Below, in pieces: positions 1,762 to 50,292 of a stretch of DNA of 64,000 nucleotides. The position numbers were made by a program, and so were the translations under genes. The DNA is from a virus. The notes below the pieces were generated by a model. It made no database searches. It saw nothing but the letters and a program-made list of their open reading frames with translations, and was not told the DNA's origin. Each line of letters opens with the position of its first letter. Position 1 is the stretch's first letter. The stretch is taken from positions 1-64,000 of the IMG/VR virus record IMGVR_UViG_3300020433_000002; one strand, given 5' to 3'.

Positions 1762-1788
1762 TAAATAATTTTAAATTCAAATTTACCC

Positions 1789-5475: not shown

Positions 5476-6008
5476 GATTAGCAGTCTTATGTTCTGGTAA
5501 CGGAACTAACTTTGAAAACATTTTGAGGTCTTGTTGGGAAGACGAAGTTGTTATTATGATCCACAACAAAAAAAATTGTGGTGCTGTTAAGAGAGCAAAC
5601 AAATTTGGTATCCCACATTGTTTTATTGAACATGAGGATGAAGACCTAATGATTATGACTCTTAAAGCAATGGATGTTGATCTTATTATACTCGCAGGGT
5701 ATATGAGAATCCTATCTAAGAAATTTGTAGATTCTTTTGATAAGATCATAAATGTTCATCCCTCATTACTACCAAAGTATAAAGGGTTAAATACAGTACA
5801 ACGAGCCTTAGATGCAGGGGATACTGTTGTAGGGTGTACCGTACACTACGTAACAGAAGAACTTGACTCTGGTGATATAATATACCAAGGGCTAGTTGAT
5901 GTTGAACCCAATGATACTGTTAAAACTTTAACAAAAAAAATTCAACGACAAGAATACTCAATTTTACCTGAGGCAATTAGACTAATTAAAAACCATGCAA
6001 ATACCTGA
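5472..6008 (+). CDS. purN: Phosphoribosylglycinamide formyltransferase
   Basis: [41 protein letters not shown]. Confidence 0.92.
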
Positions 6009-6660
6009 TACACCTGAAGCGGCTAAATTAAGTCCTGAACAAAGAGAACTTATCTCTAAGGCTAAATCAAAAAGAGATATTGGAGGAGTTGATTATATAT
6101 TTCCTGTTCCAATATATGTTAACTATATTGATAATTATCAAGAGATTCAAGATGAGTTACTAACTGGTGTTAGTCATTGTGATTTTGGAATGCATCCTAA
6201 TTGGGGTCATACTCACTTCTTATCTGATGTTACTTTTGATCAACATTTTGTAAATGATAATAGATGTGATAAATTTAAGGAAGAATTAGACTGGCATGTT
6301 CGAAAGTATGCTAAAGAATCTGGTATGGTGGATCAACACTCAATAGATAAGTTTGATTACGATCTTAAAGATTCATGGGTTGCTCTTTTTAAAAAACATA
6401 ACTATGCACACATACACTCACATGGTGAAGCTGATATATCAGGTGTGTATTATATTCAAACTCCACCAAAAACCACACAGAATGTAGGTAAAATTTTCTT
6501 TCAAGATGATAGAATGTCTCAAGAAAGAAGTGTTGAAATTCCTTCTGATCAAGGAGTTATCATACTATTTCCTGGCTACTTAAAGCATGGAGTACAAACA
6601 AATATAAGCGACATAGAACGTCTTAGTTTATCCTTTAACATTAAAATTAAAAAGAAATGA
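5995..6660 (+). CDS. Putative 2OG-Fe(II) oxygenase
   Basis: SW...HIHSH..ADISGVYY...LFPGYLKHGV...RLSLSFN. Confidence 0.8.
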   Translation: MQIPDTPEAAKLSPEQRELISKAKSKRDIGGVDYIFPVPIYVNYIDNYQEIQDELLTGVSHCDFGMHPNWGHTHFLSDVTFDQHFVNDNRCDKFKEELDWHVRKYAKESGMVDQHSIDKFDYDLKDSWVALFKKHNYAHIHSHGEADISGVYYIQTPPKTTQNVGKIFFQDDRMSQERSVEIPSDQGVIILFPGYLKHGVQTNISDIERLSLSFNIKIKKK

Positions 6661-6923
6661 TTTCATTTTTACTTTTCAGTGCAAGTCTTCTTAATTTTGC
6701 ATTTTATATCTTTGCAATAGGTTTTGTTATTGCATTAGTTTTAGAACAATTTGTGAGAAGAACAGACAATGAGAGGAACCTCTACATAGTAGAAACAAAT
6801 AGAAAATATCTATGGAGACAAACATGGATAGTTAATATCAATTGGTTTGCATGCAATGTAGGTTTGTATTTTTTTGTAAGGAATTTACAATCACCTGTAG
6901 ATACTTTTTGGAACGGGATTTAA
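6657..6923 (+). CDS. Small membrane protein
   Basis: Hydrophobic N-terminal helix and a second hydrophobic stretch. Confidence 0.65.
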   Translation: MISFLLFSASLLNFAFYIFAIGFVIALVLEQFVRRTDNERNLYIVETNRKYLWRQTWIVNINWFACNVGLYFFVRNLQSPVDTFWNGI

Positions 6924-6924
6924 C

Positions 6925-7011
6925 ATGAACAACATCGGATTAGAAATAGTTTTCTGGACTGTATTATCAGTTTACTTATTAGCAAAAGCAGGAGTCTTTA
7001 AGAAGAGATGA
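6925..7011 (+). CDS. Very small membrane peptide (28 aa)
   Basis: MNNIGLEIVFWTVLSVYLLAKAGVFKKR*; fills the gap and has an ATGA overlap with the next ORF. Confidence 0.55.
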   Translation: MNNIGLEIVFWTVLSVYLLAKAGVFKKR

Positions 7012-7238
7012 AGTTAACACAAGAGATGATTGACGAGATCCAAAGACTCATGGAACATACCAAGAAAGATGGTAGTATGAATTGGGTTGATGGTGAAGAA
7101 ATAGAAATTAATTTAGCAGGTACATTTGCTGCTGATAGATTTATTGTTATCAACAATAGATCCAAGAAACCTTGGGAACCATCAAAACCTCATCCCAGAT
7201 TTGATTACGAAAAAGGAGAGTTTATAAAAGATGAATGA
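7008..7238 (+). CDS. Hypothetical phage protein
   Basis: ORF track; GGAG upstream. Confidence 0.7.
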   Translation: MKLTQEMIDEIQRLMEHTKKDGSMNWVDGEEIEINLAGTFAADRFIVINNRSKKPWEPSKPHPRFDYEKGEFIKDE

Positions 7239-7368
7239 AGAGGAAATCGTGCAATTAATTAAAAATCTTGCAGAAGAGTTAGGAGGTACTACAACTCAGT
7301 TGACTAGGGCTAATAGTCAGGGTAGATCATCTAAGGTAATAGAAATAGAATACGATATAGAAGTATAA
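7231..7368 (+). CDS. Small hypothetical protein (45 aa)
   Basis: MNEEEIVQLIKNLAEELGG...IEYDIEV*; AGGAG upstream. Confidence 0.6.
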   Translation: MNEEEIVQLIKNLAEELGGTTTQLTRANSQGRSSKVIEIEYDIEV

Positions 7369-7412
7369 GAAAATATTAAATTTATAATATAATACAAAAG
7401 TCGCAATCCTGT

Positions 7413-7733
7413 ATGGAAATTTTATCTTCTCCTCAAGCATATGTTTTTAATTTACACACAACAAGTTCGGCAGAAGCAAAAAGAATATGGAGGAGAAAGA
7501 TAAAAGAAAGGTGGAATTGGGAATGTGCCTATTGTGGTTCTGATGAGAACATTACAATAGACCACGTAACTCCACGCTGTAAAGGTGGCCAAGATACCAT
7601 AGGAAATATGGTGTCGTGCTGTAATAAATGTAATCAAAGTAAATCACATACTCTTTGGGAAGAATGGTATTTTTCTCAGGAGTTTTTTAGTTTAGAACGG
7701 TATGCAAAAATCAAGGAAATGCAACTTGGATAA
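7413..7733 (+). CDS. HNH endonuclease
   Basis: CAYCG...TIDHVTPRCKGG...NMVSCCNKCNQSK. Confidence 0.9.
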   Translation: MEILSSPQAYVFNLHTTSSAEAKRIWRRKIKERWNWECAYCGSDENITIDHVTPRCKGGQDTIGNMVSCCNKCNQSKSHTLWEEWYFSQEFFSLERYAKIKEMQLG

Positions 7734-7736
7734 ATA
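7730..7736 (+). promoter_or_regulatory. T4-type late promoter (NTAAATA)
   Basis: ATAAATA upstream of the structural island. Similar boxes at 16552, 18719, 23621, 24247, 24686, 34593, 38218, 52376, 56160 and 61840, each just before a start codon. Confidence 0.75.
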
Positions 7737-7786
7737 ACTGAAGGCAGTATATACTGTTCTTTTTCTGGTACATACCGATAATATAA

Positions 7787-10591
7787 ATGGCTACCCCTAT
7801 TAGGATCAAACGATCTGCGGTGCCTGGAAAGGCCCCGACAGCATCTGACTTGCAAGTTGGAGAATTAGCTCTTAATACCTATGATGCTGAACTCTACACT
7901 CTGAGGTCTAGGCCTGGGATAGGCACGAATGTTGTTAAGATCGGTGGAGCAGCAGTAAAGAACGTAATATATGTCAATAAAGATGGTGACGATACAAATA
8001 GTGGAGATACATTAGGAAGAGCAAAGGCAACAATTAAATCTGCAGTAGGAATTGCCTCAGAAGGAGATGTAATTAAAATTTCTGCGGGAGTATATGTAGA
8101 AAATAATCCACTTAAAGTAGCAAAGCAAGTTAGTCTTATTGGAGATAGTCTTAGAGAAGTAACAGTAGTACCTCAGAATGCTAATGAAGATCTATTCCAT
8201 GTAAATCCAGGTGTTTATATATCTGATATGTCCTTCACAGGGACAATGAATGCGGGAAAAGCAATAACAGCATTTGAACCAGACAACATAGAATATTTCG
8301 CTCAGTCAGCATATGTTCGTAACTGTACTAACTTTGTTACGAATAGTATTGGAATGAAGATAGATGGTAATAAGTCTTTAGGGCCATTTAAGAGTATGGT
8401 TACTGACTCCTTTACTCAATATAATTCTAATGGTATAGGAGTATCAATTACTAATGATGGATATGCACAGATAGTTTCAATGTTTACTATTAATAGTGAC
8501 GTTGGAATTTTTTGTGGTAGTGGTGGGCAGTGTGATGTAACAAACTCCAACTCTTCCTTTGGTAACTTTGGATTAATATCTGATGGAGTTGGTGCAAGAA
8601 AATATACAGGAATATTAACTGCTGCTACTACAGTAGATTCAGATACTTTTGAATTGGATCTGACTGTACCAGTACAGAGCATTAAGACTGCTGAATATAC
8701 TGGTGAAACAGGTATGATGACTGTGACTACTCATGTTCCTCATGGATTTGAAGTAGGGCAGGGAATAGATTTTAGGAATATGGGTTGGACTTGTTACTAT
8801 GGAGACTATTCACATATATTTGTAAGTGCTGATCCTGCAGCAATATTCAGTGGTGGAGATTACACACATCAATTTGTAGGTGCTACTTCAGGTGCAATCA
8901 ACATTAATAGTGGAGCATCAATCGGTAATCAATTAGATATTACTGATGCAATATACACTGCATCTACAGGTCTTTTAGAATTAACATCATCTGCTGCTCA
9001 TGGAATGAGTACAAATGATAACGTTGCTGTAGATATTCTTTCACTTAGTTTTACATGTTCTAGAGATAATTATCAATCAGTTCATACATATCCACGTTCT
9101 ACAGATCCTATTGCTGGAATCAATACAGCAGTTGTAGTGACTGGTGCTAGTACCTTTAATATTAATGTTGGATCTTCTCCTATTCATAATGATCAACCCA
9201 CAGATGCTACCTATAATCCTAATACTGGAGACATGGTACTGACCATTGGTGCTCATGATTTCACTGGTCAAACTACTTTGACTGCAGGTAGTGGTAGTAC
9301 ATATAATGGAGCTACTGGAGTTCTTACAATTAATACTACTAATCCATCACATGCTTTAGTGACTGGAGATTATGTTAGATTTGATCATGAGTCTTTAACA
9401 TTCTCATGTTCTAAAGATGATCATGCTACTAATCATGCATACCCAAGAGTAACAGATCCTACTTATAATCAGTGGTTACCTGTAACCAGAGTAGATGCAA
9501 ATACTTTTACATGTAATGTTGGTATTTCAACTGCAGGAGATTTTACTCATACATTTGTTTCAGCAGTCAGTCAGGGTATTAAGGTTGCAGAAAGTACTGT
9601 TGGTATTAAGACTGAGGGTATAGTATTTACATGTTCTAAAGATGATCATGCAACTAACCATCCATATCCTAGAGTTACTGATCCAGCATACTATAGACAG
9701 ATGGGTGTAGGTGCTACCACTGCAGATAGTATAACAATTAATGTTGGAGTATCTACTCTTGATGTATTCCCAAGTGGTGTAAATGGATATGTCTTTGAGG
9801 TGAATGAGGTTGTTGGTATTAATACTTTTGTAGTTCACGTTGGGCCTAATCGTTTCCCACATCAATATGTTTCAGGTGGAGCTGCACAGGTAGATGTTAT
9901 AAGACCATTCGATGGTCAAGTAGTTTACTTTGATGCTTTATATAATACTGTAGGTAAAATAAAAGTTGGATCTGCTGGAACTGGATATATAAGAGCACCC
10001 GAAATAACTATTGATCCTCCTTCTGAACCATGGGGTATAAAAGCCACTGCTGTTGCCTCAATAAAGAATGGTAAGGTTGATGAAATTGATATAGTTTCTA
10101 GTGGAAGAGGTTATACCTCAGTACCAAATATTGTTCTATCATCACCACAGTCAGGAATAAATACTGCAACAGCTACACTAGAACTAAAACCAACTTACTA
10201 CGCTATTACAAAATCAACTGAAATATCTGGTGGTATCTCCACTATAACTGTTTCGGACAATGTTCCTTTCGCAGTTGGAGTAGGAACTACAGTTCCATTC
10301 TATAAACAGAGTAGAATCTTAGCATCAAGTCATTCATTTGAATACATTGGAACTGGAGTTGATCCAGTTACCTCATTACCTTCTAAGGGTGCTGTTCCTA
10401 TACAGGACAATGAGGTTGAAGATGCGAATGGTGGATTGACTATATTTACAAGCACCGATCAGACAGGTAATTTCCGAATTGGTGATGGTGTTATTATTAA
10501 CCAACAAACTGGAACCATATCAGGAACCTTTTATTCAAAGAGTTTATTTTCAACGATGACACCATTTATACTAGCATTAGGAGGAGATTAA
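7787..10591 (+). CDS. Virion structural/fibre protein (beta-helix scaffold with inserted repeats)
   Basis: N-terminal IRIKRSAVPGKAPT...GELALNT motif seen in phage fibres; pectin-lyase-like start YVNKDGDD...ATIKSA; three FTCSxDxxxxxHxYPRxTDP repeats. Confidence 0.75.
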   Translation: MATPIRIKRSAVPGKAPTASDLQVGELALNTYDAELYTLRSRPGIGTNVVKIGGAAVKNVIYVNKDGDDTNSGDTLGRAKATIKSAVGIASEGDVIKISAGVYVENNPLKVAKQVSLIGDSLREVTVVPQNANEDLFHVNPGVYISDMSFTGTMNAGKAITAFEPDNIEYFAQSAYVRNCTNFVTNSIGMKIDGNKSLGPFKSMVTDSFTQYNSNGIGVSITNDGYAQIVSMFTINSDVGIFCGSGGQCDVTNSNSSFGNFGLISDGVGARKYTGILTAATTVDSDTFELDLTVPVQSIKTAEYTGETGMMTVTTHVPHGFEVGQGIDFRNMGWTCYYGDYSHIFVSADPAAIFSGGDYTHQFVGATSGAININSGASIGNQLDITDAIYTASTGLLELTSSAAHGMSTNDNVAVDILSLSFTCSRDNYQSVHTYPRSTDPIAGINTAVVVTGASTFNINVGSSPIHNDQPTDATYNPNTGDMVLTIGAHDFTGQTTLTAGSGSTYNGATGVLTINTTNPSHALVTGDYVRFDHESLTFSCSKDDHATNHAYPRVTDPTYNQWLPVTRVDANTFTCNVGISTAGDFTHTFVSAVSQGIKVAESTVGIKTEGIVFTCSKDDHATNHPYPRVTDPAYYRQMGVGATTADSITINVGVSTLDVFPSGVNGYVFEVNEVVGINTFVVHVGPNRFPHQYVSGGAAQVDVIRPFDGQVVYFDALYNTVGKIKVGSAGTGYIRAPEITIDPPSEPWGIKATAVASIKNGKVDEIDIVSSGRGYTSVPNIVLSSPQSGINTATATLELKPTYYAITKSTEISGGISTITVSDNVPFAVGVGTTVPFYKQSRILASSHSFEYIGTGVDPVTSLPSKGAVPIQDNEVEDANGGLTIFTSTDQTGNFRIGDGVIINQQTGTISGTFYSKSLFSTMTPFILALGGD

Positions 10592-10595
10592 GAAA

Positions 10596-10937
10596 ATGGC
10601 ATTAGCATTAAACGTCTTTCAAACAATACCATATGTTGTACCAACGTCGCAGGTTGGGATTTATACTGCACCCGTTGGGTATACTGGTGTTGTTTTGTTA
10701 GCACAAACAGCAAATATTGGATCTGAAACACATACAGTTTCCTTTTCTCATGAAAGATCTGTCGCTGGAACGGCAGTTACAACAGAAATTTTAAAAGACT
10801 TACCTATTGAAGCAAGCGATACTGCTAATCTTTTACCAGGTAAACTTGTTCTTGAGCAGGGTGATATTCTTAAAATCTCTGGAAGCAATGCAACTGATCT
10901 TAAATTTTTAGGAAGCATATTAGAGACACTTAACTAA
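10596..10937 (+). CDS. Small virion-associated protein
   Basis: Strong AGGAGG RBS; beta-rich; inside the fibre operon. Confidence 0.65.
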   Translation: MALALNVFQTIPYVVPTSQVGIYTAPVGYTGVVLLAQTANIGSETHTVSFSHERSVAGTAVTTEILKDLPIEASDTANLLPGKLVLEQGDILKISGSNATDLKFLGSILETLN

Positions 10938-10938
10938 A

Positions 10939-13572
10939 ATGGCCATAAAATACGTTAGCGGTAAGACTAAAGAACTTAAAGTTGGTTTGTCCAGTTATAG
11001 TGAGGGTAAACCATCCTTACAAGTTACTGGAAACGTTGGTGTGGGAACTACCAACCCACTTAAGAAGGCTAATCCTGCTAATACTTCAGTTGTTAGTTCT
11101 GGTATTGTAACTGCATATCAGATCTATGCTCAGATATACTCAGGTTCTGATGCTGGAACTGGTAATGGAACTTTTGATCGCCAAGCTAACATAGCGATAG
11201 GTGATACATTTACTGGAAATACGGGAATAGTTAGTGATTATAAGTATGCAAACATAAGCATTGGTAATTGTGCAGGTAAATCTATATTTGGTGGTGCTCA
11301 GAAGAATGTTTTAATAGGAGAGAATGCAGGTGCTGGTATTTTAGATGGTTCTAAAAACGTCGTAATTGGTGATAATGCATTAGGTAAATCTGGTATTAGT
11401 GGGGATGAAAACTTCGCAGTCGGTGATACTGCAGGTTACAATTTGACCTCAGGCTCTCACAATATTATGTTTGGTGATCAGGCTGGTGGTTTCACTTCCA
11501 CTGGTGGATGTAATGTCATGATCGGCCGAAGAGCTGGAATGGGTAATCAGACTGGAAATAATAATATTGTACTTGGAAATCTTGCAGGGTATAATAATGG
11601 AGATGGTAGTGATAATATTTTCCTAGGTACTTGTGCGATGGGTGCTTGCCTCAATCCATCGAATACTTTAGTTATTGGACACTATAACCACCAGTGGATA
11701 CACGGAGATTCAAATTATAGTATTGGTATTGGTATTACAAATCCTTCAGTCGCATCTGTTGCTATAGGAAATACACAGAAGTTAGCTGCTGGTATTGTTA
11801 CTGCTTATACTATTTTTTCTGATCAGTTAAATGTAACTGGTATCGCTACAATTAATACTTTAGATAGTTTAAATATATCTGGTGTCTCAACCTTTGCTGG
11901 TATATCTACTTTTTATAATAAGGTATATTTTGAAGATGATGTTTTTGTAGGAGCAGGTGGGACAGTTGGATTTGGAACTACTGCTTACTTTGGTTATAAC
12001 AATGATTTTAAAATCTATGATGATACTGCCATAGGGCAATCTTCTAAAATTCATACAAGAAATTCACTTCAATTCAAATCTACTGCACCAAGTGGTTTTG
12101 TTGGAATAAAAAGTGAAGTTACCCTTACATTTGGTATGGGTACTACATTTTGGGAAACAGACCTATTTTATTTGCAAACAACTTCTGGTCAGTTAATTGA
12201 AGCTGATGCTCGTGCTGGTGGGTTTGTAAAACTTAAGTATGGTAATTCGACAAAATTAACTACTAGAGATTATGGTATTGATGTAACAGGACATGTTGAG
12301 ACTGACACCTTAAATGTTACTGGTATCTCTACCTTCAATGATGATGTAGAGTTTATTGGTAATGCTGCTGGTATTACATCTGCTTTCTGGGATAAGTCTG
12401 CTAATGAATTAAAGTTTTATGATGGTTCAAAAGCATCATTTGGTGATGGCCAAGATTTACAAATCTATCATAGTGGTAGCCATTCTTTCATAGATGATAC
12501 TGGAACTGGTAATTTAAAACTTAGATCAAATAATTTAAGATTATCTAATGCAGATGAATCTAAATTATTTGCAGCATTCCAAGCAGGAGCTGTTGAATTA
12601 TACCATGAGAATGCAGAACGACTTAGAACTACTGGAATAGGAATTTCTGTTGTTGGTGTTGGTAGTACAGCATACATTGAAGGCCCAGATAATATAATAA
12701 TAGATCCACATCCATATGGTATTGGTGCTACTAGTGGTAACGTTTTCATTAGAGGTGATTTATATGTAGAAGGTACAGAATTTATTGTTGATGTAGATAA
12801 GATAGAACTTGGTGATTTCCAAATTGGTATTGCAACAACTGCAGGTACTAATGCACTTCTTGATGGTGCAGGTATTGGTATTGGTTCTACTAATATTAGA
12901 AAGTTTATTACTTGGAATAATGCAACCAATGCATTGATGACTAGTGAGAACTGGAACCTAGCATCAGGAAAACACTATGAGATTAATGGTACTGATGTAC
13001 TAACTTCTGATACATTACTGGTTGGAACGGGAGCATCAGTTCATTCACCTTCAAATAATATATTAACTCTTCATACGAATGGAGCTGAGAAACTTCGTAT
13101 AGATGCATCAGGTAATCTAGGTATTGGAACTGCTGTACCAACAGACTCTGCTAATGCAGCAAATTCATCAGTAACTTCTGCGGGTATTGTTACTGCACTT
13201 GAATACTACGGTATATTTAAAGGATCTATCCCTGGCTTCTCAACTGTATTCTCATCATCATCAGGATCATTTAGTGCAACTCCTGGTGTTCCTTATACTA
13301 TAGATACTTTTGCATTCTCAACTCATGATTATCAAATTGCAGAATACACTTTACACTTTGTACATGCTAATGGAATACAAGCACAGAAAGCATTAGTTAT
13401 GCAGGATAATTCTGTTGCATATTCAAATGAGTATGGAGTCATGTATGATTCTGAATTACTTGTTTCTATTGGTGCAACAGTTGTAGGTGGTAATGTTAAC
13501 ATCACTGCTACACCTGAAACTGGTATCAGTGGAGTGACTACATTTAGATGGAGAAGGGAGGTTCAAACCTAA
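10939..13572 (+). CDS. Tail fibre-like protein
   Basis: VGIGT/AGIVTA fibre motifs, NxxIGxxAG 14-aa repeats, DLQIYH..SHSFI segment. Confidence 0.8.
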   Translation: MAIKYVSGKTKELKVGLSSYSEGKPSLQVTGNVGVGTTNPLKKANPANTSVVSSGIVTAYQIYAQIYSGSDAGTGNGTFDRQANIAIGDTFTGNTGIVSDYKYANISIGNCAGKSIFGGAQKNVLIGENAGAGILDGSKNVVIGDNALGKSGISGDENFAVGDTAGYNLTSGSHNIMFGDQAGGFTSTGGCNVMIGRRAGMGNQTGNNNIVLGNLAGYNNGDGSDNIFLGTCAMGACLNPSNTLVIGHYNHQWIHGDSNYSIGIGITNPSVASVAIGNTQKLAAGIVTAYTIFSDQLNVTGIATINTLDSLNISGVSTFAGISTFYNKVYFEDDVFVGAGGTVGFGTTAYFGYNNDFKIYDDTAIGQSSKIHTRNSLQFKSTAPSGFVGIKSEVTLTFGMGTTFWETDLFYLQTTSGQLIEADARAGGFVKLKYGNSTKLTTRDYGIDVTGHVETDTLNVTGISTFNDDVEFIGNAAGITSAFWDKSANELKFYDGSKASFGDGQDLQIYHSGSHSFIDDTGTGNLKLRSNNLRLSNADESKLFAAFQAGAVELYHENAERLRTTGIGISVVGVGSTAYIEGPDNIIIDPHPYGIGATSGNVFIRGDLYVEGTEFIVDVDKIELGDFQIGIATTAGTNALLDGAGIGIGSTNIRKFITWNNATNALMTSENWNLASGKHYEINGTDVLTSDTLLVGTGASVHSPSNNILTLHTNGAEKLRIDASGNLGIGTAVPTDSANAANSSVTSAGIVTALEYYGIFKGSIPGFSTVFSSSSGSFSATPGVPYTIDTFAFSTHDYQIAEYTLHFVHANGIQAQKALVMQDNSVAYSNEYGVMYDSELLVSIGATVVGGNVNITATPETGISGVTTFRWRREVQT

Positions 13573-16550
13573 TGACTGAAGAAGAATATAATCAGCGAAA
13601 AGCGGCCTTTGAAACACATAAAAACACATTAGAAAAAGAACCATCAGGATCAGATGTAAAGAAAGAATATTGGGTAGGATGTTATTCAAAAGATGATTGG
13701 GAAATAATACATTCACTGCTTCTTGAGGATGGTACTCTAGAAGATAACATTCCTAATGATCATGTAGATTGTCCTAATGATTGTCGTCAAAGTGAGACTA
13801 GAGCTGTATATCTATTAACAGATACAGAAGTAGCTGCACTTAAAAATCATGAACTAGTAAGATACGTACATATTAATACTGCAAAATATCCAGGAACATA
13901 TGCATCAAATCCTGATGATATTAAAATGGATGGTAGAACTTTTAGATATTCTTCTACAACAAAACATAAAAGAGATACCTCTACTAATCAGTCAGATTAT
14001 TTACCAAGTTCACCAGATGCTACATTACTCAATAGAGGATGTTATAATTTATTAAGACATACAGAAAAGAAAGATCCTTGGAGAGCAGGATTGTCTTCTT
14101 CATTCACATCTGCTGGAACTTATAGTTGGACTGCTCCTGCAGGAATAGCAACTGTAAGTGTTGTTTGTGTTGGAGGTGGTGGTGCTGGTGATGGTACAGG
14201 TTGGAGTTCTGGTGGTGCAGGTGGAGGATTAGCTTGGAAAAATAATATTTCTGTAACACCTGGCCAATCTTATGTGGTTCAAGTTGGGTCTGGAGGTACT
14301 AGAGGTGGAGCAGCTCCTGATGGTGCAAATGGTGGAACATCATTTTTCATTAGTACTTCTATAGTTGCAGCAAGTGGAGGTTACGGACATTATAATTCAA
14401 CACCTCAGAATCCACCAGGTGGAGAAATGTTAGCTGGAGATGGTGGTGGAAGTGGTGGTCTAGGAGGATATTATAGTGGTAGTTATGCAGGATATTATGG
14501 TGGTGGCGGTGGAGCTGGTGGATATGCTGGTACTGGTGGAAATGGTGGTACCAATGTTCCAACACATCCTATTCAAGTAAGTGCTGGTACTGGTGGTGCA
14601 GGTGGTGGCGGCTGGGCCGTTCAAAGTGCTGTTGAATCCTCTTCTGGTACTGGTGGAGGAGTAGGAATATATGGTCAAGGAGTAAGTGGTGCTGCAGGTA
14701 CCAGTACTAGTAGTAGTACATGGGGTGGTCGTGGTGGATCTGGTGGAGAAGATGGTGGATCAACTGGTAGCGATGGTGCTGATTATGGAGCTGGAGCTGG
14801 CGGTGGTGGTAGTATTGGTGGCGGTGGTGCTGTGAGAATAGTTTGGGGAGAGGGCAGACAATTCCCATCACAAAATGTTCAGGAAGTAGTCTCTGATTCG
14901 ACTATACTTGATAGTAAGATCCCTCAATATGCAACAGGAAAAGGTATTGATTTAATTGTGTGTGATGAAGATATGTGGTTTGGACATATTGAATTTATGA
15001 ATCCAAGTGGTATAACAGATATTAAACAATCAGATAATTCAACTGCTGCGACCACTGCTGCACCAGCTAACTATGTTGGAACGAATGTTTTGAAGTCTGG
15101 TTTTGCTACTTCATCTACAACTGGAATATGTGAATTGTTAGATTTAGTTTTAGATGCTCCTTATTATATTGATAAGGAATGGTTTGAAGCAGATGCAGGA
15201 AATAGATTAATGACTCGTTGGGATGGAACAAAAGTTCCAGTTGAATCTGTTGCAAGATCTTGGTGGTCTAATTCATCAAATAGATCTGCTGCATTTTCAA
15301 GTGCAGGTACTGTATCAGTTCCTGCTGCATATACTAGAGCAAATAGTAATGGAAGTTATACTGCATATCATACTGGTTCTGGAAATCATGGAACTCCTTG
15401 TGCATCACAAGCATATGGAAGACAATATGGTTGGGCTTATAATGCAAACAAATGGTTCTTAAATCTTTATGGAACTAATAGTGTAGGACTTGAAGCAGGT
15501 TTTGATTTACAAAAAATATTTCATCAGAACAAACCAGTAAATCCAGAGTATGGAAATAAGAATCCAACTGTATCAAGTAACAGTTGGGGATTGAGACAAT
15601 CACCTACAACCTCTGGGTATTATTATTTCAGACAAGGTGTAACTGGAGGAACTGGAACAAGTTATAGTAGTCTTCCTGCATTTATGAATTATTTTACGGG
15701 TGATGGATTAAATAGAAGATCACCAGAATATGTTGATGGTCATGCAGCAATTACTGCTGGTGATGAGATGATAGAGGCAGGTGTTATCTTTGTATGTTCA
15801 TCTGGTAATAATAATCAGAAGCAAGTTCAAAGTAATCATGCAGATTTTAATAATTATTATGCATCAGGTTCAAGTGTAAACTATGCAAATGCAACAACTA
15901 ATAGCATATATTCATTAATGAATTTCACACCCACTTATAATAGTTTGAATCGACGAGGGTTTCCAGCACAGATAGGTGTTGATAGAAGCACTACTCCATA
16001 TACTTATAAAACAATATCTATTGGTGCTTTAGATGATGATCATACTGCTGAAGGATTAGAACGAAAGGCATCCTACAGTAACATGGGTAATAGTGTTGAT
16101 TGTTTTGCTGCTGCAGATCAAACACTATCTGCATCAGATGATAATTCCAGTCCAAGGTTCAATAGATATGATGCATACTATGATATTGGAACAACACAAG
16201 CTGTTGAATCAGAAGATAAAAACTTTAACGGAACTAGTTCTGCATGTCCTATAGCTGCAGGATTGATTGCTACTAAGTTAGAGAATAACAGAACTTGGAC
16301 ATATGCTGATGTTAAAAATTGGTTAGCATCTGATGTTGAGAATACGTCAGATGCATGGTTCTATAAAGGAACTGAAGCAACTACAGCAACTGATACTACT
16401 AATTGGGGTGATTATTATAATTTGCAGGGAGCACAATTGAAAATCATATATGATACACCACCACCAGTACCCTCATCAGAAGATTCGGATGCAAAAGTAT
16501 CAGTTACTGGTAGCAATATATCATTCGGTGGTAACTTCTCAATCATTTAA
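13572..16550 (+). CDS. S8 subtilisin-like serine protease with glycine-rich insertion
   Basis: Asp motif DLIVCDED (14964), His motif HGTPCAS (15387), oxyanion SSGN (15807), Ser motif NGTSSACP (16236). Start at the TAATG overlap (13572) preferred to 13548. Confidence 0.85.
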   Translation: MTEEEYNQRKAAFETHKNTLEKEPSGSDVKKEYWVGCYSKDDWEIIHSLLLEDGTLEDNIPNDHVDCPNDCRQSETRAVYLLTDTEVAALKNHELVRYVHINTAKYPGTYASNPDDIKMDGRTFRYSSTTKHKRDTSTNQSDYLPSSPDATLLNRGCYNLLRHTEKKDPWRAGLSSSFTSAGTYSWTAPAGIATVSVVCVGGGGAGDGTGWSSGGAGGGLAWKNNISVTPGQSYVVQVGSGGTRGGAAPDGANGGTSFFISTSIVAASGGYGHYNSTPQNPPGGEMLAGDGGGSGGLGGYYSGSYAGYYGGGGGAGGYAGTGGNGGTNVPTHPIQVSAGTGGAGGGGWAVQSAVESSSGTGGGVGIYGQGVSGAAGTSTSSSTWGGRGGSGGEDGGSTGSDGADYGAGAGGGGSIGGGGAVRIVWGEGRQFPSQNVQEVVSDSTILDSKIPQYATGKGIDLIVCDEDMWFGHIEFMNPSGITDIKQSDNSTAATTAAPANYVGTNVLKSGFATSSTTGICELLDLVLDAPYYIDKEWFEADAGNRLMTRWDGTKVPVESVARSWWSNSSNRSAAFSSAGTVSVPAAYTRANSNGSYTAYHTGSGNHGTPCASQAYGRQYGWAYNANKWFLNLYGTNSVGLEAGFDLQKIFHQNKPVNPEYGNKNPTVSSNSWGLRQSPTTSGYYYFRQGVTGGTGTSYSSLPAFMNYFTGDGLNRRSPEYVDGHAAITAGDEMIEAGVIFVCSSGNNNQKQVQSNHADFNNYYASGSSVNYANATTNSIYSLMNFTPTYNSLNRRGFPAQIGVDRSTTPYTYKTISIGALDDDHTAEGLERKASYSNMGNSVDCFAAADQTLSASDDNSSPRFNRYDAYYDIGTTQAVESEDKNFNGTSSACPIAAGLIATKLENNRTWTYADVKNWLASDVENTSDAWFYKGTEATTATDTTNWGDYYNLQGAQLKIIYDTPPPVPSSEDSDAKVSVTGSNISFGGNFSII

Positions 16551-46105: not shown

Positions 46106-46744
46106 GTGGCTGGACTTATTTCAAAATATAAAATGGGTACTCTTACTAGGATGGATCTTAGTAAGGTCTCTTTGAATAACCAATATCAGGTACATATTGC
46201 AGGTATATCATTCGAATTAAAGAGATATCTTCAACAATATTATGATCTGCCTAATGATTATGCAAATGGTAATAAGGTTGGTATAATGTGTGCTGAAGCT
46301 ACATTACCTACCAGTTCATTTGCTACATCAGAAGTTAAAGATAATTATCAAGGAATCAATCAACAGTTTGCACATACAAGAATATATGTTGATAGTGATT
46401 TCTCATTCTACGTAGATCAAGATTATAATGTTCTTAAATTTTTTGAGGGATGGATGGATTATGTTGCAGGTGATGATAACTTTAAAGGTATCACCCGTAC
46501 TGATGATAACAATTACTATAGAAGATTAAACTATCCTATGAACAGAGATAACAAGATAGGATACAAGTCTGGATCATTAACAATTACAAAATTTGAAAAG
46601 AATCTAGATCCAAAGAAAAGTATTACTTATGAATATGTAAATGCCTTTCCAAAGTCAATGACTTCAATACCCGTGCAATATGGTGGTGCTGATCTTGTAA
46701 AGGTAAATGTTCAGTTTGCTTACGATAGATATAGAATGAAATAA
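46106..46744 (+). CDS. Tail tube/baseplate junction protein (gp54/gp19-like)
   Basis: CAEATLP, FYVD..Y.VLKFFEGWMDY, NAFPKS, V.FAY; GTG start. Confidence 0.7.
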   Translation: MAGLISKYKMGTLTRMDLSKVSLNNQYQVHIAGISFELKRYLQQYYDLPNDYANGNKVGIMCAEATLPTSSFATSEVKDNYQGINQQFAHTRIYVDSDFSFYVDQDYNVLKFFEGWMDYVAGDDNFKGITRTDDNNYYRRLNYPMNRDNKIGYKSGSLTITKFEKNLDPKKSITYEYVNAFPKSMTSIPVQYGGADLVKVNVQFAYDRYRMK

Positions 46745-46791: not shown

Positions 46792-47514
46792 ATGCCCTTA
46801 CCAAAAATTAATACCCCCGTCTATGAATTGGTATTACCTTCTAGTGGAAGAAAAGTTAAATATAGACCATTCTTAGTTAGAGAAGAAAAGATTTTAATTA
46901 TGGCCTTGGAATCTGAAAATCAAAAGCAGATTTCTGAAGCAGTTAAAACAGTAATAGGACAGTGTGTTCAAACACGAGGTATCAAGGTCGAAAAAATGGC
47001 GACGTTTGATATCGAATATCTATTTTTAAATGTTCGTGCAAAATCTGTTGGTGAATCTGTTGAGGTCAATGTAACCTGTCCTGATGATGGAGAAACACAG
47101 GTTGTAATGGAAATCGACATTGATGCTATCAAAGTTCAAAAGAATCCAGACCATAGTGATATTATTAAATTAGATGATAATTTATCAGTTAAAATGGCTT
47201 ATCCATCTATGACTCAATTTATTGAGACTAATTTTGAACTGGATACTGAGAAAGCTCAAGTAGATCAATCTCTTGAAGTTATTATGAAATGCATTGATCA
47301 AGTATATACTGCAGAGGAATCTTGGGATGCTTCTGACTGTACTAAAAAAGAATTGAAGGAATTTGTTGAGTCTATGAACTCTAAACAGTTTAAGGACATT
47401 GAAAAATTCTTTGATACAATGCCTAAACTACAACATAAAGTTGAGGTATTTAATCCAAAGACTAAAGTAAAAAGTGAAGTGATGTTGGAGGGTCTAGCAA
47501 GTTTTTTCGCTTAG
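46792..47514 (+). CDS. g26: gp26 baseplate hub assembly protein
   Basis: MPLPKI..P.YEL.LPS...YRPFLVREEK, FDIEYLFL..RAKSVGE, ends LEGLASFFA. Confidence 0.88.
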   Translation: MPLPKINTPVYELVLPSSGRKVKYRPFLVREEKILIMALESENQKQISEAVKTVIGQCVQTRGIKVEKMATFDIEYLFLNVRAKSVGESVEVNVTCPDDGETQVVMEIDIDAIKVQKNPDHSDIIKLDDNLSVKMAYPSMTQFIETNFELDTEKAQVDQSLEVIMKCIDQVYTAEESWDASDCTKKELKEFVESMNSKQFKDIEKFFDTMPKLQHKVEVFNPKTKVKSEVMLEGLASFFA

Positions 47515-47693
47515 CTCTAGCTCATGAGAGTCTAGAGAATTACTATCGGACTAATTTTGCCCTCATGCAACACCATAAATATAGCTTAACAGAGTTAGAA
47601 AACATGATTCCTTGGGAAAGAGAGATTTATGTTTCACTTCTCCAGCAATATATTGAAGAAGAAAATCTAAAAGCACAACAACGACGTGGCTAA
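47514..47693 (+). CDS. g51: gp51-like baseplate assembly domain, probably reached by -1 frameshift from g26
   Basis: -1 frame reads ALAHESLENYYRTNFALMQHHKYSLTELENMIPWEREIYVSLL...; first in-frame ATG only at 47565. Confidence 0.75.
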   Translation, partial: ALAHESLENYYRTNFALMQHHKYSLTELENMIPWEREIYVSLLQQYIEEENLKAQQRRG

Positions 47694-49254
47694 AGTAGCA
47701 AAAGCAAAACCTAAAATTAAAGCATCAAAAGTAACTGCTCTTGGTGGGAAAGGTGCTGCTCCAATCAAAAGAAGAGGAAGACCAAAGAAGTTACAGACAC
47801 TCGCAGAGGTAAAGGCTGCGATAGATGCAAAAAACCCAACGTTTGTGAGTCCTATTACAGGAGGTAAATTACCAGGCACAGGGCCTAAGATAGATCCAAG
47901 TAAACTTGTACCTGATACTGTTGATGATGAATTAAGACAGAAAGTTGAAAATAATTCCATAAAAATCACTAAACTTAAGAATATACTTAAATTAAGAAGA
48001 GAGAATGATCCTACTGATGAGATAGCAGAGGTATCTTTAATACTTCAAGATATTGGTAATGCATTGAGTCAAGATTTTGCAAATAGAATTACGCAAGAGA
48101 AAGATGCGATAGCAACTTTAAGAGGAACAGCAGACAGAAAGAAAAGAACGGGTGCAGAAGCAGGAATAGAAGCTGTTAAGAAGATCGGTGGTACAATAGG
48201 TAAGGCATTTGATACAGTAACTGCACCAGCAAAGAATATACTTGATAAAGTTATAAATTTCTTTGCGGCCATAGCGGGAGGATTTATTGCAGATAAAGCA
48301 ATAACATGGTTAGCCAATAATAATGAAGCAATTACAAGTTTCTTTAAATTCTTAGAGAATCATGGTCAGAAACTTCTAATTGGATTAGGAGCCATTGTTG
48401 GTGGTGTTCTTGTTATGAAAATTTTCAAGAAAGTTAAAGCACTTGTTAAGTTTGTTAATAGTGTCTTTAAAGGATTGAATAGGGCTAGACGACTGGCTAG
48501 AGTCTTCTTAAAACGAACGCTCCCAAAAATGCTTAAAAATGCTAAGACATTAATTAAGAATGGTGTGTCTGCAATTAAGAATTTTGCTAAGAATCTACCT
48601 GGTGCAAAAGGTTTATTTAAACTAGGAAAAAATATAATAAAAGGTGGAAAGAATTTAATAAAAGGTGGAAAGACTCTATTAAAGAGTGGTGGTAAATTAC
48701 TGAAGAGTGGTGGAAAAAGTTTACTTAAAAATTTAGGTAAGGCAGGAGGTAAGTCACTCCTTAAAAAGATCCCTATTGTTGGACTAGGTTTAGGTGCTGC
48801 ATTTGCTGTAGGTAGATTAATGTCTAAACCACCAGATTGGAAAGGTGCTTTAGGTGAAATGGCTTCTGGTGCTGCTTCTATGATTCCTGGTGTTGGAACT
48901 GGTCTTTCACTTGCTATTGATGCTGGTATGATGGTGAGAGATAATAAGTTGAGTAAGGATGAGAAGAATCTAAAAGATGCTATGGGTGATTATGAAAAAA
49001 CAGCAGAAGCAATCGCAGGTAAAGAACAACAACTTAACTTCAACAAAAATGTTAGTCCTACAGGAGATCTTACAGATCCTAATGCGGATGGTGTGACTAC
49101 AGTTCTAGACCCCATAACAATTTCTCAACAAGCACAACAAAAACAGGCTGACTTTTTGGGTGGTGAGTTTGATAGTGTACCTCTTATTGGTGCAGAGGAT
49201 ATGAGTAACTATTATATTCTTCAAACTAAAGAAAAACTAGGGATATACGTATAA
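47686..49254 (+). CDS. Tape-measure-like protein 1
   Basis: Helical, Lys/Gly/Ala-rich, hydrophobic segments, KKIPIVG motif; position after g26/g51. Confidence 0.6.
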   Translation: MAKVAKAKPKIKASKVTALGGKGAAPIKRRGRPKKLQTLAEVKAAIDAKNPTFVSPITGGKLPGTGPKIDPSKLVPDTVDDELRQKVENNSIKITKLKNILKLRRENDPTDEIAEVSLILQDIGNALSQDFANRITQEKDAIATLRGTADRKKRTGAEAGIEAVKKIGGTIGKAFDTVTAPAKNILDKVINFFAAIAGGFIADKAITWLANNNEAITSFFKFLENHGQKLLIGLGAIVGGVLVMKIFKKVKALVKFVNSVFKGLNRARRLARVFLKRTLPKMLKNAKTLIKNGVSAIKNFAKNLPGAKGLFKLGKNIIKGGKNLIKGGKTLLKSGGKLLKSGGKSLLKNLGKAGGKSLLKKIPIVGLGLGAAFAVGRLMSKPPDWKGALGEMASGAASMIPGVGTGLSLAIDAGMMVRDNKLSKDEKNLKDAMGDYEKTAEAIAGKEQQLNFNKNVSPTGDLTDPNADGVTTVLDPITISQQAQQKQADFLGGEFDSVPLIGAEDMSNYYILQTKEKLGIYV

Positions 49255-50292
49255 ATGAGCCAGAAACAAGAAGTAAAAAAACTGAAGATAACTGCTGTTA
49301 ATCTTAGGAGTGTACTAACAGATAAGACTAAAGAACTTGGAAAGTTAGGTGATAAGAAGAAAATTCTTGTCCGTAAGCAAAGATTACAGGCAGAGAGGGC
49401 CGCTGCTGAGAAAAAAATTGAACAAGCGGGAGGTAATAAAGGCCCTGTAGCAAGTGTACTTGGTAATGTTGGTGGAATGGTAATGAGTATCAAAGATAGA
49501 GTAATGAATTTCTTTGGATATCTTTTAATGGGATTTGTTGTTCAGAAATTACCACAGATTATTTCTTTCTTAACATCAGCATATGATAAAATAGCACCAT
49601 TCGTAAAGGTTGTATGGAAGGTTATAAGTTCGATTGCATCAGCACTGGTAAAATTTGGTGGTTGGGTTTCTCAACTGTGGAAACCTAGTGAGGCAGAATC
49701 TAACGTAGCTCAGTTAGAAACTGTAAAGAAAGATATGGAAGGTGAAGTTGATAAAATAGAAGAACCTAAAGAAGAAGAAGATGGTGGTGGTGAAGAGACT
49801 AAAGAAGGTGAAGAGGATGCTACTCCTATAGATTTCTCTCAAGTGGATAAGTTTGAGAAAGGTGGTGGTGAAGGTTTAGGTCAGACTGCGGATAAACAAG
49901 AAGGTGAAGATGAAGCATTGATAAATGCAACAGGTACTACCGATACAGAAGCACAAGGAGAAGGAGAACAGGTAGAAAATCCATTAGAAAACTTAATTGC
50001 AATAGATCCTGAGAAAATTGCGAAGACTGGAGCTGATGGTGAAAAGAAAGAGGATGTAACAAAAGAAGATGATAAGGTAGAGAAAGTTATAGATGCTAAT
50101 GTTAATAATATATTGAACAAAGTTCATAAAGTTACTGGTGACTTAAAGATGCAAAATGGTGGAAATAATCTCAATACCGTAATTATTCCTGTAGAAGTTC
50201 TTGCAACTACTGATGCTAATGGTGATACACCTAAAAATCGGACTGAGGTAAGACCAGAACCAGAAGTCTCTAATCATAGGGTGATAGATTAA
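49255..50292 (+). CDS. Tape-measure-like protein 2
   Basis: Coiled coil, hydrophobic segment and acidic low-complexity region; tandem with the previous gene. Confidence 0.5.
   Translation: MSQKQEVKKLKITAVNLRSVLTDKTKELGKLGDKKKILVRKQRLQAERAAAEKKIEQAGGNKGPVASVLGNVGGMVMSIKDRVMNFFGYLLMGFVVQKLPQIISFLTSAYDKIAPFVKVVWKVISSIASALVKFGGWVSQLWKPSEAESNVAQLETVKKDMEGEVDKIEEPKEEEDGGGEETKEGEEDATPIDFSQVDKFEKGGGEGLGQTADKQEGEDEALINATGTTDTEAQGEGEQVENPLENLIAIDPEKIAKTGADGEKKEDVTKEDDKVEKVIDANVNNILNKVHKVTGDLKMQNGGNNLNTVIIPVEVLATTDANGDTPKNRTEVRPEPEVSNHRVID

What the first reader, a model, noticed from the sequence alone, without database searches (positions are those of the whole stretch)
47487..47693. Complete -1 programmed ribosomal frameshift cassette fusing gp26 to gp51: a lambda G/GT-type tail chaperone pair in a T4-like phage
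Seen: g26 ends ...GCA AGT TTT TTC GCT TAG, containing an in-frame X_XXY_YYZ heptamer T_TTT_TTC (47502-47508). An SD-like GGAGGG sits 9 nt upstream (47487-47492). A hairpin CTCTAG-CTC-[ATGA]-GAG-T-CTAGAG starts 6 nt downstream (47515-47537). The -1 frame is open from 47478 and reads FFRLALAHESLENYYRTNFALMQHHKYSLTELENMIPWERE...RRG* (stop 47693). It has no ATG before 47565, so the HESLENYYRTNFAL part of gp51 appears to lack its own start. The next gene is tape-measure-like. Established: SD + slippery heptamer + hairpin is the E. coli dnaX architecture, and a -1 frameshift in the chaperone gene just upstream of the tape-measure gene is the lambda gpG/gpGT rule. Inference: cyanophage gp26 and gp51 are a G/GT-like chaperone pair made as gp26 plus a gp26-51 fusion. 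I am not aware of this being described for T4-like phages, but I could not check the literature.
Basis: partly seen in the sequence, partly recalled or inferred. Interest (0 to 1): 0.88.

Follow-up and report, generated by a model that had tools for sequence, protein, structure and literature searches.

The report
Frameshift joins cyanophage gp26 to gp51
One baseplate-hub chaperone gene of this T4-like cyanophage very probably makes a 240-residue and a 300-residue protein, because some ribosomes slip back one base on a strictly conserved TTTTTTC; phage T4 makes the same pair from two separate genes, 26 and 51.

Summary

**For the frameshift**
- The heptamer T_TTT_TTN sits in the g26 frame in 62 of 62 and 41 of 41 distinct junctions from two sets of relatives. 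The downstream ORF is always in the -1 frame.
- The residue after Phe switches between Phe and Leu while the heptamer stays.
- The 19 codons before the window's first -1-frame ATG evolve as coding sequence. The first possible start moves between codons 1 and 32.
- T4-type gp51 (249 aa) is a gp26-family body plus this same C-terminal tail, colinear with the predicted 300-aa fusion.
- This explains why cyanophage gp51 "lacks the first ~200 aa" (PMC3037559). It also bears on the review statement that G-T frameshifting is conserved "except T4" (PMC5009743).

**Not supported, or untested**
- The hairpin is no better than chance and is not conserved.
- The upstream GAGG has moderate support from codon bias.
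- There is no sequence link to lambda-type chaperone families.
- Nine literature searches found no report of this frameshift.
- This scan had already noted the same claim on other DNA: 454 notes.
- There is no experimental proof.

The parts
46106..46744 (+). Upstream gene: tail-tube-fold protein (212 aa)
   Evidence: Pfam PF23849 Phage_TTP_2, E 2.9e-23. phrog_45 tail tube, E 5.4e-32. A tail tube gene holds the same position in KVP40, phiN3 and pf16.
46792..47514 (+). g26, the short form: 240 aa, baseplate hub assembly chaperone family
   Evidence: Pfam PF12322 T4_baseplate, E 9.3e-72, residues 9-240. phrog_150, E 5.7e-79. It is the only PF12322 match in the 84.5-kb record.
47487..47492 (+). 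Shine-Dalgarno-like GGAGGG, 9 nt before the heptamer
   Evidence: Sequence. The Glu codon here is GAG in 57 of 60 sequences, against 392 of 1375 elsewhere in g26, and the 3 GAA cases are followed by GGG. In the second clade it is GAG in 25 of 35, against 202 of 852 elsewhere. Part of this reflects the conserved residues E-G, so support is moderate.
47502..47508 (+). Slippery heptamer T_TTT_TTC in the g26 frame: the proposed -1 shift site
   Evidence: it is the only in-frame X_XXY_YYZ after which the -1 frame stays open (61 codons). It is conserved as T_TTT_TTN in 62 of 62 and 41 of 41 distinct junctions.
47512..47514 (+). TAG stop of the short form, one codon after the heptamer
   Evidence: The zero-frame stop follows the heptamer by 0 to 2 codons in all relatives examined.
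47508..47693 (+). -1 frame extension: 61 codons plus stop. It is the gp51-like tail of the predicted 300-aa long form.
   Evidence: phrog_634 'baseplate hub assembly catalyst', E 1e-31, and phrog_150 positions 227-278 of 282. It aligns to residues 196-249 of the 249-aa T4-type gp51, E 1e-10. Codon-position and synonymous bias.
47565..47693 (+). The ATG-started 42-aa ORF that gene callers would report as 'gp51'
   Evidence: It lacks the conserved RLALAHESLENYYRTNFAL stretch. The first ATG falls at codon 3, 19 or 32 in different relatives.
47515..47537 (+). Inverted repeat proposed as a stimulatory hairpin. It is present but not supported as a functional element.
   Evidence: -11.3 kcal/mol, z -0.87, 40 of 200 shuffles as good. 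RNAalifold on 20 relatives gives no conserved structure, -0.01 kcal/mol. Downstream folds range from -1.2 to -15.6 kcal/mol among relatives.
47686..49254 (+). Next gene (522 aa). Its GTG start overlaps the stop of the extension. It is a candidate tape-measure-type virion protein.
   Evidence: No Pfam or NCBIfam match. Only weak PHROG matches to a central Gly/Lys-rich hydrophobic stretch. No similarity to T4-type gp29 or to the Cr30 'tape measure'. The ORF at this position is 1565 aa in S-CREM2, whose tail is 418 nm.
49255..50292 (+). Second downstream gene (345 aa), possibly part of the same length-scaling pair
   Evidence: Its positional counterpart in S-CREM2 is 1456 aa and is in the virion proteome. 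No family match here.

Best explanation
g26 (46792-47514) is decoded in two ways.

**The two products.** Most ribosomes stop at TAG 47512-47514 and make the 240-aa gp26. A fraction slip back one base on U_UUU_UUC (47502-47508). On that heptamer both tRNA-Phe can re-pair. These ribosomes continue in the -1 frame to 47693 and make a 300-aa protein: residues 1-239 of gp26 plus 61 residues that databases call 'gp51'.

**Possible stimulators.** An upstream GAGG-type Shine-Dalgarno-like element probably helps. A downstream hairpin is not required by the evidence.

**Relation to T4.** The short and long forms correspond to T4 gp26 (208 aa) and gp51 (249 aa). Both T4 proteins are described as hub assembly chaperones, and gp51 is absent from the particle. 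The logic is that of lambda gpG/gpGT: a shared chaperone body at a fixed ratio with a rarer form that carries an extra C-terminal adaptor.

**Shown here:** the anatomy, its conservation, coding selection in the start-less stretch, and colinearity with T4-type gp51.

**Inferred:** that slippage occurs, its efficiency, the chaperone role in this phage, and what the tail binds.
For: 1. **Heptamer and phase.** 83 of 87 sources gave a whole junction, as 62 distinct sequences. 61 have TTTTTTC and 1 has TTTTTTT. The extension was in the -1 frame in every locus where it was found. In a second clade only 34-100% identical to P0130, T_TTT_TTN is kept in 41 of 41 distinct junctions (A 25, C 11, T 4, G 1). 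The extension is in -1 in 41 of 41 by HMM.
2. **The constraint is on nucleotides, not residues.**
   - The second codon codes Phe or Leu.
   - The codon before the heptamer is AGT, TCT, AAT or GAT, always ending in T.
   - The second Phe is TTC in 61 of 61, although TTC is 111 of 583 Phe codons elsewhere in g26.
3. **No conserved start.** The first ATG falls at codon 3 (14), 19 (30) or 32 (18) of 62. 25 of 62, the window included, have no ATG, GTG or TTG before codon 19. In the second clade the first start ranges over codons 1-32.
4. **Coding selection in codons 0-18.** Diversity by codon position is 2.91, 1.74 and 7.86. Synonymous against non-synonymous pairwise codon differences are 12956 to 4433, against 2330 to 14955 and 1709 to 15394 in the other two frames.
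5. **T4-type gp51 is the contiguous long form.** It matches PF12322 over residues 2-198 (E 2e-45) and phrog_150 over 13-282 of 282. The window extension aligns to its residues 196-249, starting at the slipped F. The window gp26 residues 72-208 align to its residues 58-172.
6. **The same arrangement occurs in other lineages.** It is seen in KVP40, phiN3, Cr30, pf16, Astolliot, S-CREM2 and Menderavirus Bhz51.
7. **One gene per genome.** There is one PF12322-type place per record in 605 of 605 records of this type.
8. **The T6 run is not an assembly error.** Independent DNA contigs cross the junction without an indel: X3, 457 nt, 0 differences; X4, 1936 nt, 0 gaps.
Against: - There is no protein or ribosome-profiling evidence.
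- As a bare motif, the heptamer is not rarer than chance in this AT-rich window.
- The sequences compared are related, so the counts are not independent events.
- The hairpin is not significant or conserved.
- 14 of 62 relatives, plus KVP40, phiN3 and Cr30, have an ATG within the first 4 codons of the extension. A separately started short gp51 is possible there.
- Vibrio phages K364 and BX-1 keep the -1 phase with an ATG overlapping the stop, but have no canonical heptamer.
- There is no sequence link to known tail-assembly-chaperone families.
- The next gene is not demonstrably a tape measure.
- With an HMM of cyanophage-type gp26, T4-type gp26 scores higher (58.9-70.8 bits for two of three) than T4-type gp51 bodies (14.8-22.9 bits). 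The tree does not resolve the order of events.
Confidence: 0.82

Rival explanations
1. There is no frameshift. 'gp51' is a separate small protein started on its own, in the window as 42 aa from ATG 47565. Elsewhere it starts from an ATG or TTG nearer the g26 stop, perhaps by translational coupling.
For: Public records annotate it this way in every region I fetched. 14 of 62 relatives have an ATG at codon 3. In KVP40, Cr30, K364 and BX-1 an ATG overlaps or abuts the g26 stop.
Against: The start position is not conserved: codons 3, 19 or 32, and 1-32 in the second clade. The stretch upstream of it is conserved as protein, with third-position and synonymous bias. This explanation does not account for the invariant T_TTT_TTN across Phe/Leu changes, nor for the contiguous T4-type gp51. 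It may hold in addition to the fusion in some lineages.
Confidence: 0.09
2. The long form is made by transcriptional slippage. RNA polymerase adds one U in the T6 run, and the ribosome reads normally.
For: A homopolymer lies at the junction. Rare contiguous 279-300-aa proteins exist in metagenome gene calls, which shows that one-base length changes near the run give the fused frame.
Against: As far as I recall the literature, six T is shorter than the runs known to give programmed transcriptional slippage (about nine). In the 13 contiguous forms the break lies at different places near the junction, and each has 1-2 member sequences, as sporadic errors or variants would. An RNA-library contig of a relative crosses the junction with no gap (X19 record 3). 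That is weak evidence, because contigs drop rare variants and DNA can be present in RNA libraries.
Confidence: 0.04
3. The conservation reflects only protein constraint on the C-terminal ..GL.SFF motif of gp26. The region between the g26 stop and the ATG is untranslated or regulatory.
For: F238 and G234 are nearly invariant in 119 diverse family members. T4 gp26, which is not followed by such an ORF, also ends ..RGLKEFFELL.
Against: The motif changes to F-L while TTTTTTA is kept. The preceding codon always ends in T. The region after the stop has a coding signature in the -1 frame only, and the other two frames contain stops in 61 of 61 and 58 of 61 sequences.
Confidence: 0.03

Closest known systems
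Phage T4 gp26 (208 aa) and gp51 (249 aa), baseplate hub assembly chaperones (Leiman et al. 2010, PMC3004832, passages read)
   Same: Same protein family: PF12322 covers the window gp26 and both T4-type gp26 and gp51. The short form ends at the same ..GL.xFF motif. The long form carries the same C-terminal tail. The genes sit in the hub gene cluster.
   Different: In T4-type phages the two forms are separate, divergently transcribed paralogous genes with no frameshift. Here, one gene plus a -1 slip would make both. The body of T4-type gp51 has diverged strongly.
Lambda gpG/gpGT and the conserved -1 frameshift of tail assembly chaperone genes in long-tailed phages (Xu, Hendrix & Duda 2004, recalled and seen only as a reference entry; Atkins et al. 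2016, PMC5009743, passages read)
   Same: A slippery heptamer lies near the end of a chaperone ORF. The -1 extension has no dependable start of its own. The result is a short form plus a rarer long form. The gene lies between a tail-tube-fold gene and a long virion protein gene whose length scales with the tail.
   Different: No sequence similarity to Pfam tail-assembly-chaperone families, and the fold was not tested. The T4 proteins are described as hub chaperones, not tube chaperones. The heptamer is U_UUU_UUN rather than G_GGA_AAG (the lambda site is recalled). Binding partners are unknown.
E. coli dnaX -1 frameshift cassette: upstream Shine-Dalgarno, A_AAA_AAG, 3' hairpin (recalled)
   Same: An X_XXY_YYZ heptamer with a GAGG-type element about 10 nt upstream. 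That element shows synonymous-site constraint.
   Different: No supported 3' stem-loop. The shift here extends the protein, whereas in dnaX it truncates it.

Membership tests
PF12322 T4_baseplate (gp26/gp51 family) | Significant match to the family profile over its full length | tested here: met
   E 9.3e-72, 241.7 bits against a cut-off of 24.5, profile positions 2-219 of 219. All 119 aligned relatives match.
PF12322 T4_baseplate (gp26/gp51 family) | The long form carries the gp51-type C-terminal tail | tested here: met
   The -1 extension matches phrog_634 at E 1e-31 and T4-type gp51 residues 196-249 at E 1e-10. This holds only if the frameshift occurs.
Lambda G/GT-type tail assembly chaperone frameshift | Two overlapping ORFs, with the second in the -1 frame and without a dependable start | tested here: met
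Lambda G/GT-type tail assembly chaperone frameshift | A conserved slippery sequence inside the overlap | tested here: met
   62 of 62 and 41 of 41 distinct junctions. The overlap is 47478-47514.
Lambda G/GT-type tail assembly chaperone frameshift | Position between the tail tube gene and the tape measure gene | tested here: inconclusive
   A tube-fold gene lies upstream. The downstream 522-aa gene has no tape-measure match, but its positional counterparts are three to four times longer in the 418-nm-tailed S-CREM2. Cr30 has an annotated tape measure two genes downstream.
Lambda G/GT-type tail assembly chaperone frameshift | Homology, by sequence or fold, to known tail assembly chaperones | tested here: inconclusive
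   By sequence it is not met. No tail-assembly-chaperone family appears among the 25 most-matched Pfam families shown of 208 for the 119 members at E up to 1, and there is no PDB relative.
Lambda G/GT-type tail assembly chaperone frameshift | Two protein products, and binding of the body to the tape measure and of the tail to the tube protein | not testable with these tools
   This needs infected-cell proteomics and binding assays.
dnaX-type three-element -1 cassette | Upstream Shine-Dalgarno-like stimulator at about 10 nt | tested here: inconclusive
   GAG in 57 of 60 against 28.5% elsewhere, and 25 of 35 against 24% elsewhere. This is confounded by the conserved E-G residues.
dnaX-type three-element -1 cassette | A stable, conserved 3' stem-loop | tested here: not met
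   z -0.87. No consensus structure in 20 relatives.

The most novel reading that the evidence does not exclude
The single-gene, -1-frameshift arrangement is the ancestral state of the whole T4 superfamily. It is seen in Kyanoviridae, KVP40-type Straboviridae, and the rhizobial, Caulobacter, Pseudomonas and Stenotrophomonas T4-like phages. T4's genes 26 and 51 would then be a later duplication that hard-wired the two products. On this reading T4 is not an exception to the tail-chaperone frameshift rule. gp26 and gp51 would be the long-sought chaperones of its tape measure gp29, with the 50-60-residue tail as the adaptor to the hub or tube.
Probability: 0.45. Interest if true: 0.8.

Novelty: new member of a known kind. 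Interest (0 to 1): 0.68.

Why it matters
- **An annotation puzzle.** It would explain why gp51 of cyanophages and marine vibriophages appears to lack its first ~200 residues. Hundreds of deposited genomes annotate a 40-60-aa 'baseplate hub assembly catalyst' that is probably only the tail of a 300-aa protein.
- **The T4 exception.** It would bring the T4 superfamily under the general rule that long-tailed phages make a short and a long tail chaperone by -1 frameshifting. A major review states that this rule is conserved 'except T4'.
- **T4 gp51.** It gives a testable idea for the essential protein T4 gp51, whose function a T4 review calls unknown.
- **Ecology.** These cyanophages are among the most abundant viruses in the sea.

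Tried and rejected
**Hairpin as a conserved stimulator: rejected.** z is -0.87. RNAalifold on 20 relatives gives -0.01 kcal/mol. Single-sequence folds range from -1.2 to -15.6 kcal/mol.

**Heptamer significance from the window alone: rejected**.

**Next gene as a tape measure by sequence: no support.** Pfam, NCBIfam and pairwise BLASTP found nothing. The Atlas gave only unnamed viral clusters.

**A solved structure for the family: none**.

**Sequence link to tail-assembly-chaperone Pfam families: none**.

**A conserved lineage of in-frame fusions: not found.**
- The top 150 of 4631 representatives are 118-271 aa long.
- 13 of the 120 listed 'longer' hits are 279-300 aa. Each has 1-2 member sequences, and the break sits at a different place in each.
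- I read these as sporadic indels or errors, not as a lineage.

**The order of the duplication from a tree: unresolved.**
- The tree has 21 rows, long branches, and 9 of 18 inner forks open.
- RB43_orf607 was left out because it had no HMM hit.
- gp51-type rows were cut to their first 198 residues.

**A '+1' arrangement in Stenotrophomonas phage IME-SM1**. Its close relative Bhz51 has one more T at the same spot and the usual -1 arrangement. I therefore take the IME-SM1 T5 run for a homopolymer miscall or a variant.

**RNA evidence.** Only Logan contigs were on offer, which cannot show rare slippage. X20 covers only parts of the stretch and says nothing.

**Literature.**
- Searches found no report of a gp26/gp51 frameshift.
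- Subscription journals and supplements were not visible. That includes Fig. S3 of PMC3037559 and the tables of PMC10665884.
- Pfam PF28602, which precomputed annotation places on the extension, is not in the local library. I could not read its description, and it may already say something about gp51.
Full report
**Observation.**
- The window holds a 240-codon ORF at 46792-47514. It ends AGT TTT TTC GCT TAG.
- T_TTT_TTC lies at 47502-47508 in that ORF's frame.
- GGAGGG lies at 47487-47492.
- An inverted repeat lies at 47515-47537.
- The -1 frame is open from 47478 to a stop at 47691-47693 and reads SDVGGSSKFFRLALAHESLENYYRTNFALMQHH....
- No ATG, GTG or TTG occurs in that frame before the ATG at 47565.

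Taken alone it is not beyond chance:
- TTTTTTC occurs 27 times in the window against 21 expected.
- 4 of 65 long ORFs end with an in-frame slippery heptamer.
- The hairpin's -11.3 kcal/mol is matched by 40 of 200 shuffles.

**What the genes are.**
- The ORF is a full-length member of Pfam PF12322, T4_baseplate (E 9.3e-72), and of phrog_150.
- The -1 piece matches phrog_634, 'baseplate hub assembly catalyst' (E 1e-31). It also matches the last 50 positions of phrog_150.
- The gene upstream has a tail-tube fold domain (PF23849).
- Downstream come a 522-aa and a 345-aa protein without family matches, then a phrog_350 tail protein, then a gp5-like hub protein.
- By DNA, the nearest named phage is Prochlorococcus phage P-SSM2, at about 70% identity.
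- The window is part of an 84.5-kb viral record, estimated 41% complete, with one PF12322 gene.

**Conservation of the shift site.**
- I fetched 80 IMG/VR loci with the window's gp26 (72-98% identity) and six named phages.
- Of the 87 sources, 83 gave a whole junction and extension. The other 4 were lost to contig ends or to a missing tblastn hit. KVP40 was among them and was read by hand.
- These are 62 distinct sequences. 61 have TTTTTTC with the stop one codon later, and phiN3 has TTTTTTT.
- The extension was in the -1 frame wherever it was present.
- I then took P0130, a representative 47% identical to the window's gp26 whose product ends ..SFLA, and fetched 80 more loci.
- After dropping 4 truncated ones, the 41 distinct junctions all carry T_TTT_TTN in frame (A 25, C 11, T 4, G 1). 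All have the extension in -1 by an HMM test of the three frames.
- So the second codon codes Phe or Leu, and the residue before is Ser, Asn or Asp. The seven bases stay slippery, and the preceding codon always ends in T.
- Among the 150 listed representatives, 111 end in FF plus 0-3 residues, and 13 of the other 39 end in FL plus one residue.
- Elsewhere in g26, TTC is only 111 of 583 Phe codons. At the site it is 61 of 61. One reason is visible: with the frequent next codon AGT or AGC, a T there would create TAG in the -1 frame.

**The start-less stretch is translated.**
- The first ATG of the extension lies at codon 3 in 14, codon 19 in 30 and codon 32 in 18 of the 62 sequences. 25 have no ATG, GTG or TTG before codon 19.
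- In the second clade the first candidate start ranges from codon 1 to codon 32.
- Yet the stretch (R/Q)LA(L/M)AHESLENYYRTNFAL is nearly invariant.
- Over codons 0-18, diversity is 2.91, 1.74 and 7.86 at codon positions 1, 2 and 3.
- Pairwise codon differences are 12956 synonymous to 4433 non-synonymous. Read in the other two frames, the ratios are 2330 to 14955 and 1709 to 15394, and those frames contain stops in 61 of 61 and 58 of 61 sequences.
- A peptide that is under selection but has no conserved way to start is what a frameshift extension looks like.

**The T4 link.**
- In T4-type phages (Aeromonas phage 25, Acj9, a Tequatrovirus), genes 26 and 51 are divergent neighbours, followed by 27, 28 and 29.
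- T4-type gp51 (249 aa) matches PF12322 over residues 2-198 (E 2e-45) and phrog_150 end to end.
- The window's extension, starting at the slipped Phe, aligns to gp51 residues 196-249, its very C-terminus (E 1e-10).
- The window's gp26 residues 72-208 align to gp51 residues 58-172.
- T4-type gp26 ends ..RGLKEFFELL, the same motif at which the cyanophage short form ends.

So T4's two genes encode, as separate proteins, the short and long forms predicted here.

This answers the remark by Sullivan et al. (PMC3037559, passages) that cyanophage gp51 is only about 20% of the length of other gp51, and that cyanophage and marine vibriophage copies miss the first ~200 residues. The KVP40 record carries a similar note. 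Leiman et al. (PMC3004832, passages) list gp26 and gp51 as hub assembly chaperones, and call gp51 essential, absent from the particle and of unknown function.

**Which T4 paralogue is nearer is not clear.** Pfam scores gp51 higher. My HMM of cyanophage-type gp26 scores T4-type gp26 higher. A 21-row tree has long branches and many open forks.

**Spread of the arrangement.**
- The same arrangement with T_TTT_TTC or T_TTT_TTT is present in:
  - KVP40 (Straboviridae);
  - phiN3 (Emdodecavirus);
  - Caulobacter phage Cr30;
  - Pseudomonas phages pf16 and Astolliot;
  - cluster-C cyanophage S-CREM2;
  - Stenotrophomonas phage Bhz51.
- tblastn with phiN3 gp26 finds one place per record in 605 of 605 records.
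- Two Vibrio phages, K364 and the ackermannvirus BX-1, keep the -1 phase with an ATG overlapping the stop but lack a canonical heptamer. There a separate start is the simpler reading.
- None of the 20 annotated regions I fetched marks a joined CDS.
- One record already calls T4-type gp51 a 'tape measure protein assembly chaperone' (H166).

**Stimulators.**
- The Glu codon five codons before the heptamer is GAG in 57 of 60 sequences, against 28.5% elsewhere. The three GAA cases are followed by GGG.
- In the second clade it is GAG in 25 of 35, against 24% elsewhere.
- That keeps a GAGG or AAGG core about 10 nt upstream, the spacing I recall for dnaX. Because E-G are conserved residues, this is moderate support.
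- The hairpin fails both tests.

**Is it lambda G/GT?** It works like G/GT: a short and a long form from one gene by a -1 slip near the end, next to tail genes.

Membership is not shown:
- No tail-assembly-chaperone Pfam family appears among the 25 most-matched families shown for the 119 members.
- No solved relative exists.
- The fold test could not be run.

The 'tape measure' identity of the next gene rests on two things. First, in S-CREM2, whose tail is 418 nm, the two ORFs after g26/51 are 1565 and 1456 aa and are in the virion proteome, against 522 and 345 aa here (PMC10665884, passages). Second, Cr30 has an annotated tape measure two genes downstream. That is a two-point comparison.

**Other controls.**
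- Independent metagenome contigs cross the T6 run without an indel, so it is not an assembly error.
- Rare contiguous 279-300-aa gene calls exist: 13 of 120 listed, each with 1-2 members and with the break at varying places.
- They show what the fused frame encodes and match the predicted length. They look like sporadic indels.

**Novelty.**
- Atkins et al. 2016 (PMC5009743, passage) state that G-T frameshifting is conserved among long-tailed phages 'except T4'.
- Nine full-text searches found no report of a gp26/gp51 frameshift. Subscription papers, supplements and the text of Pfam PF28602 were out of reach.
- This scan has noted the same claim many times on other genomes: 454 notes. I reached the reading before that look-up and tested it here independently.

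**Verdict.** This is a very probable, experimentally unproven, programmed -1 frameshift. It is a new member of the known class of tail-chaperone frameshifts, in a protein family and a phage group where it has not been reported.

Noticed in passing
L092 (Stenotrophomonas phage IME-SM1) about 1575-1585, against L181 (phage Bhz51) about 1172-1182: IME-SM1 has five T where its close relative Bhz51 has six, in otherwise identical sequence. This puts the extension in the +1 frame and gives an annotated 280-aa 'gp26' with a junk tail. It is probably a homopolymer miscall or a variant in the IME-SM1 record.
   Followed up: partly
window 47686-50292; L096 9230-18171 (S-CREM2): The two ORFs after g26/51 are 522 and 345 aa here. 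In S-CREM2 (tail 418 nm) they are 1565 and 1456 aa, are annotated 'endolysin', and are found in the virion proteome. They may be a two-part tape measure. At 1.5 Å per residue (a rule of thumb I recall), the S-CREM2 pair sums to about 450 nm.
   Followed up: partly
window 47686-47693: The GTG start of the 522-aa gene overlaps the stop of the -1 extension (GTGGCTAA). P-SSM2 has ATGGCTGA at the same place (L001 3889-3896). This suggests translational coupling of the next gene to ribosomes reading the extension frame.
   Followed up: no
alignment A2; window gp26 residues about 95 and 220-230: Most family members carry two Cys pairs (CxxC ... CxxC just before ..LEGLxxFF) and give weak zinc-ribbon Pfam hits in up to 9 of 119 members. 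The window's protein keeps one Cys (VTCPDD) and has lost the C-terminal pair.
   Followed up: no
proteins P0272-P0391: Precomputed annotation places a Pfam family PF28602.1 on the extension. It is absent from the local Pfam copy, so I could not read its name or description.
   Followed up: partly
L091 (Vibrio phage K364) 1608-1805; L093 (Vibrio phage BX-1, Ackermannviridae) 1545-1751: A gp51-like small ORF again follows the gp26-like gene in the -1 frame, but with an ATG overlapping the stop and only CTTTTTG or GTTTTTC instead of a canonical heptamer. This may be a lineage in which the tail is made on its own.
   Followed up: no
L179 (RB43) 1498-2791: In RB43 the gp51-type gene is followed on the same strand by a 185-aa ORF that weakly matches the gp26 HMM (24.5 bits) and ends ..RGLEAFLKVVG. 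So the 26/51 pair is arranged in tandem here, not divergently as in T4.
   Followed up: no
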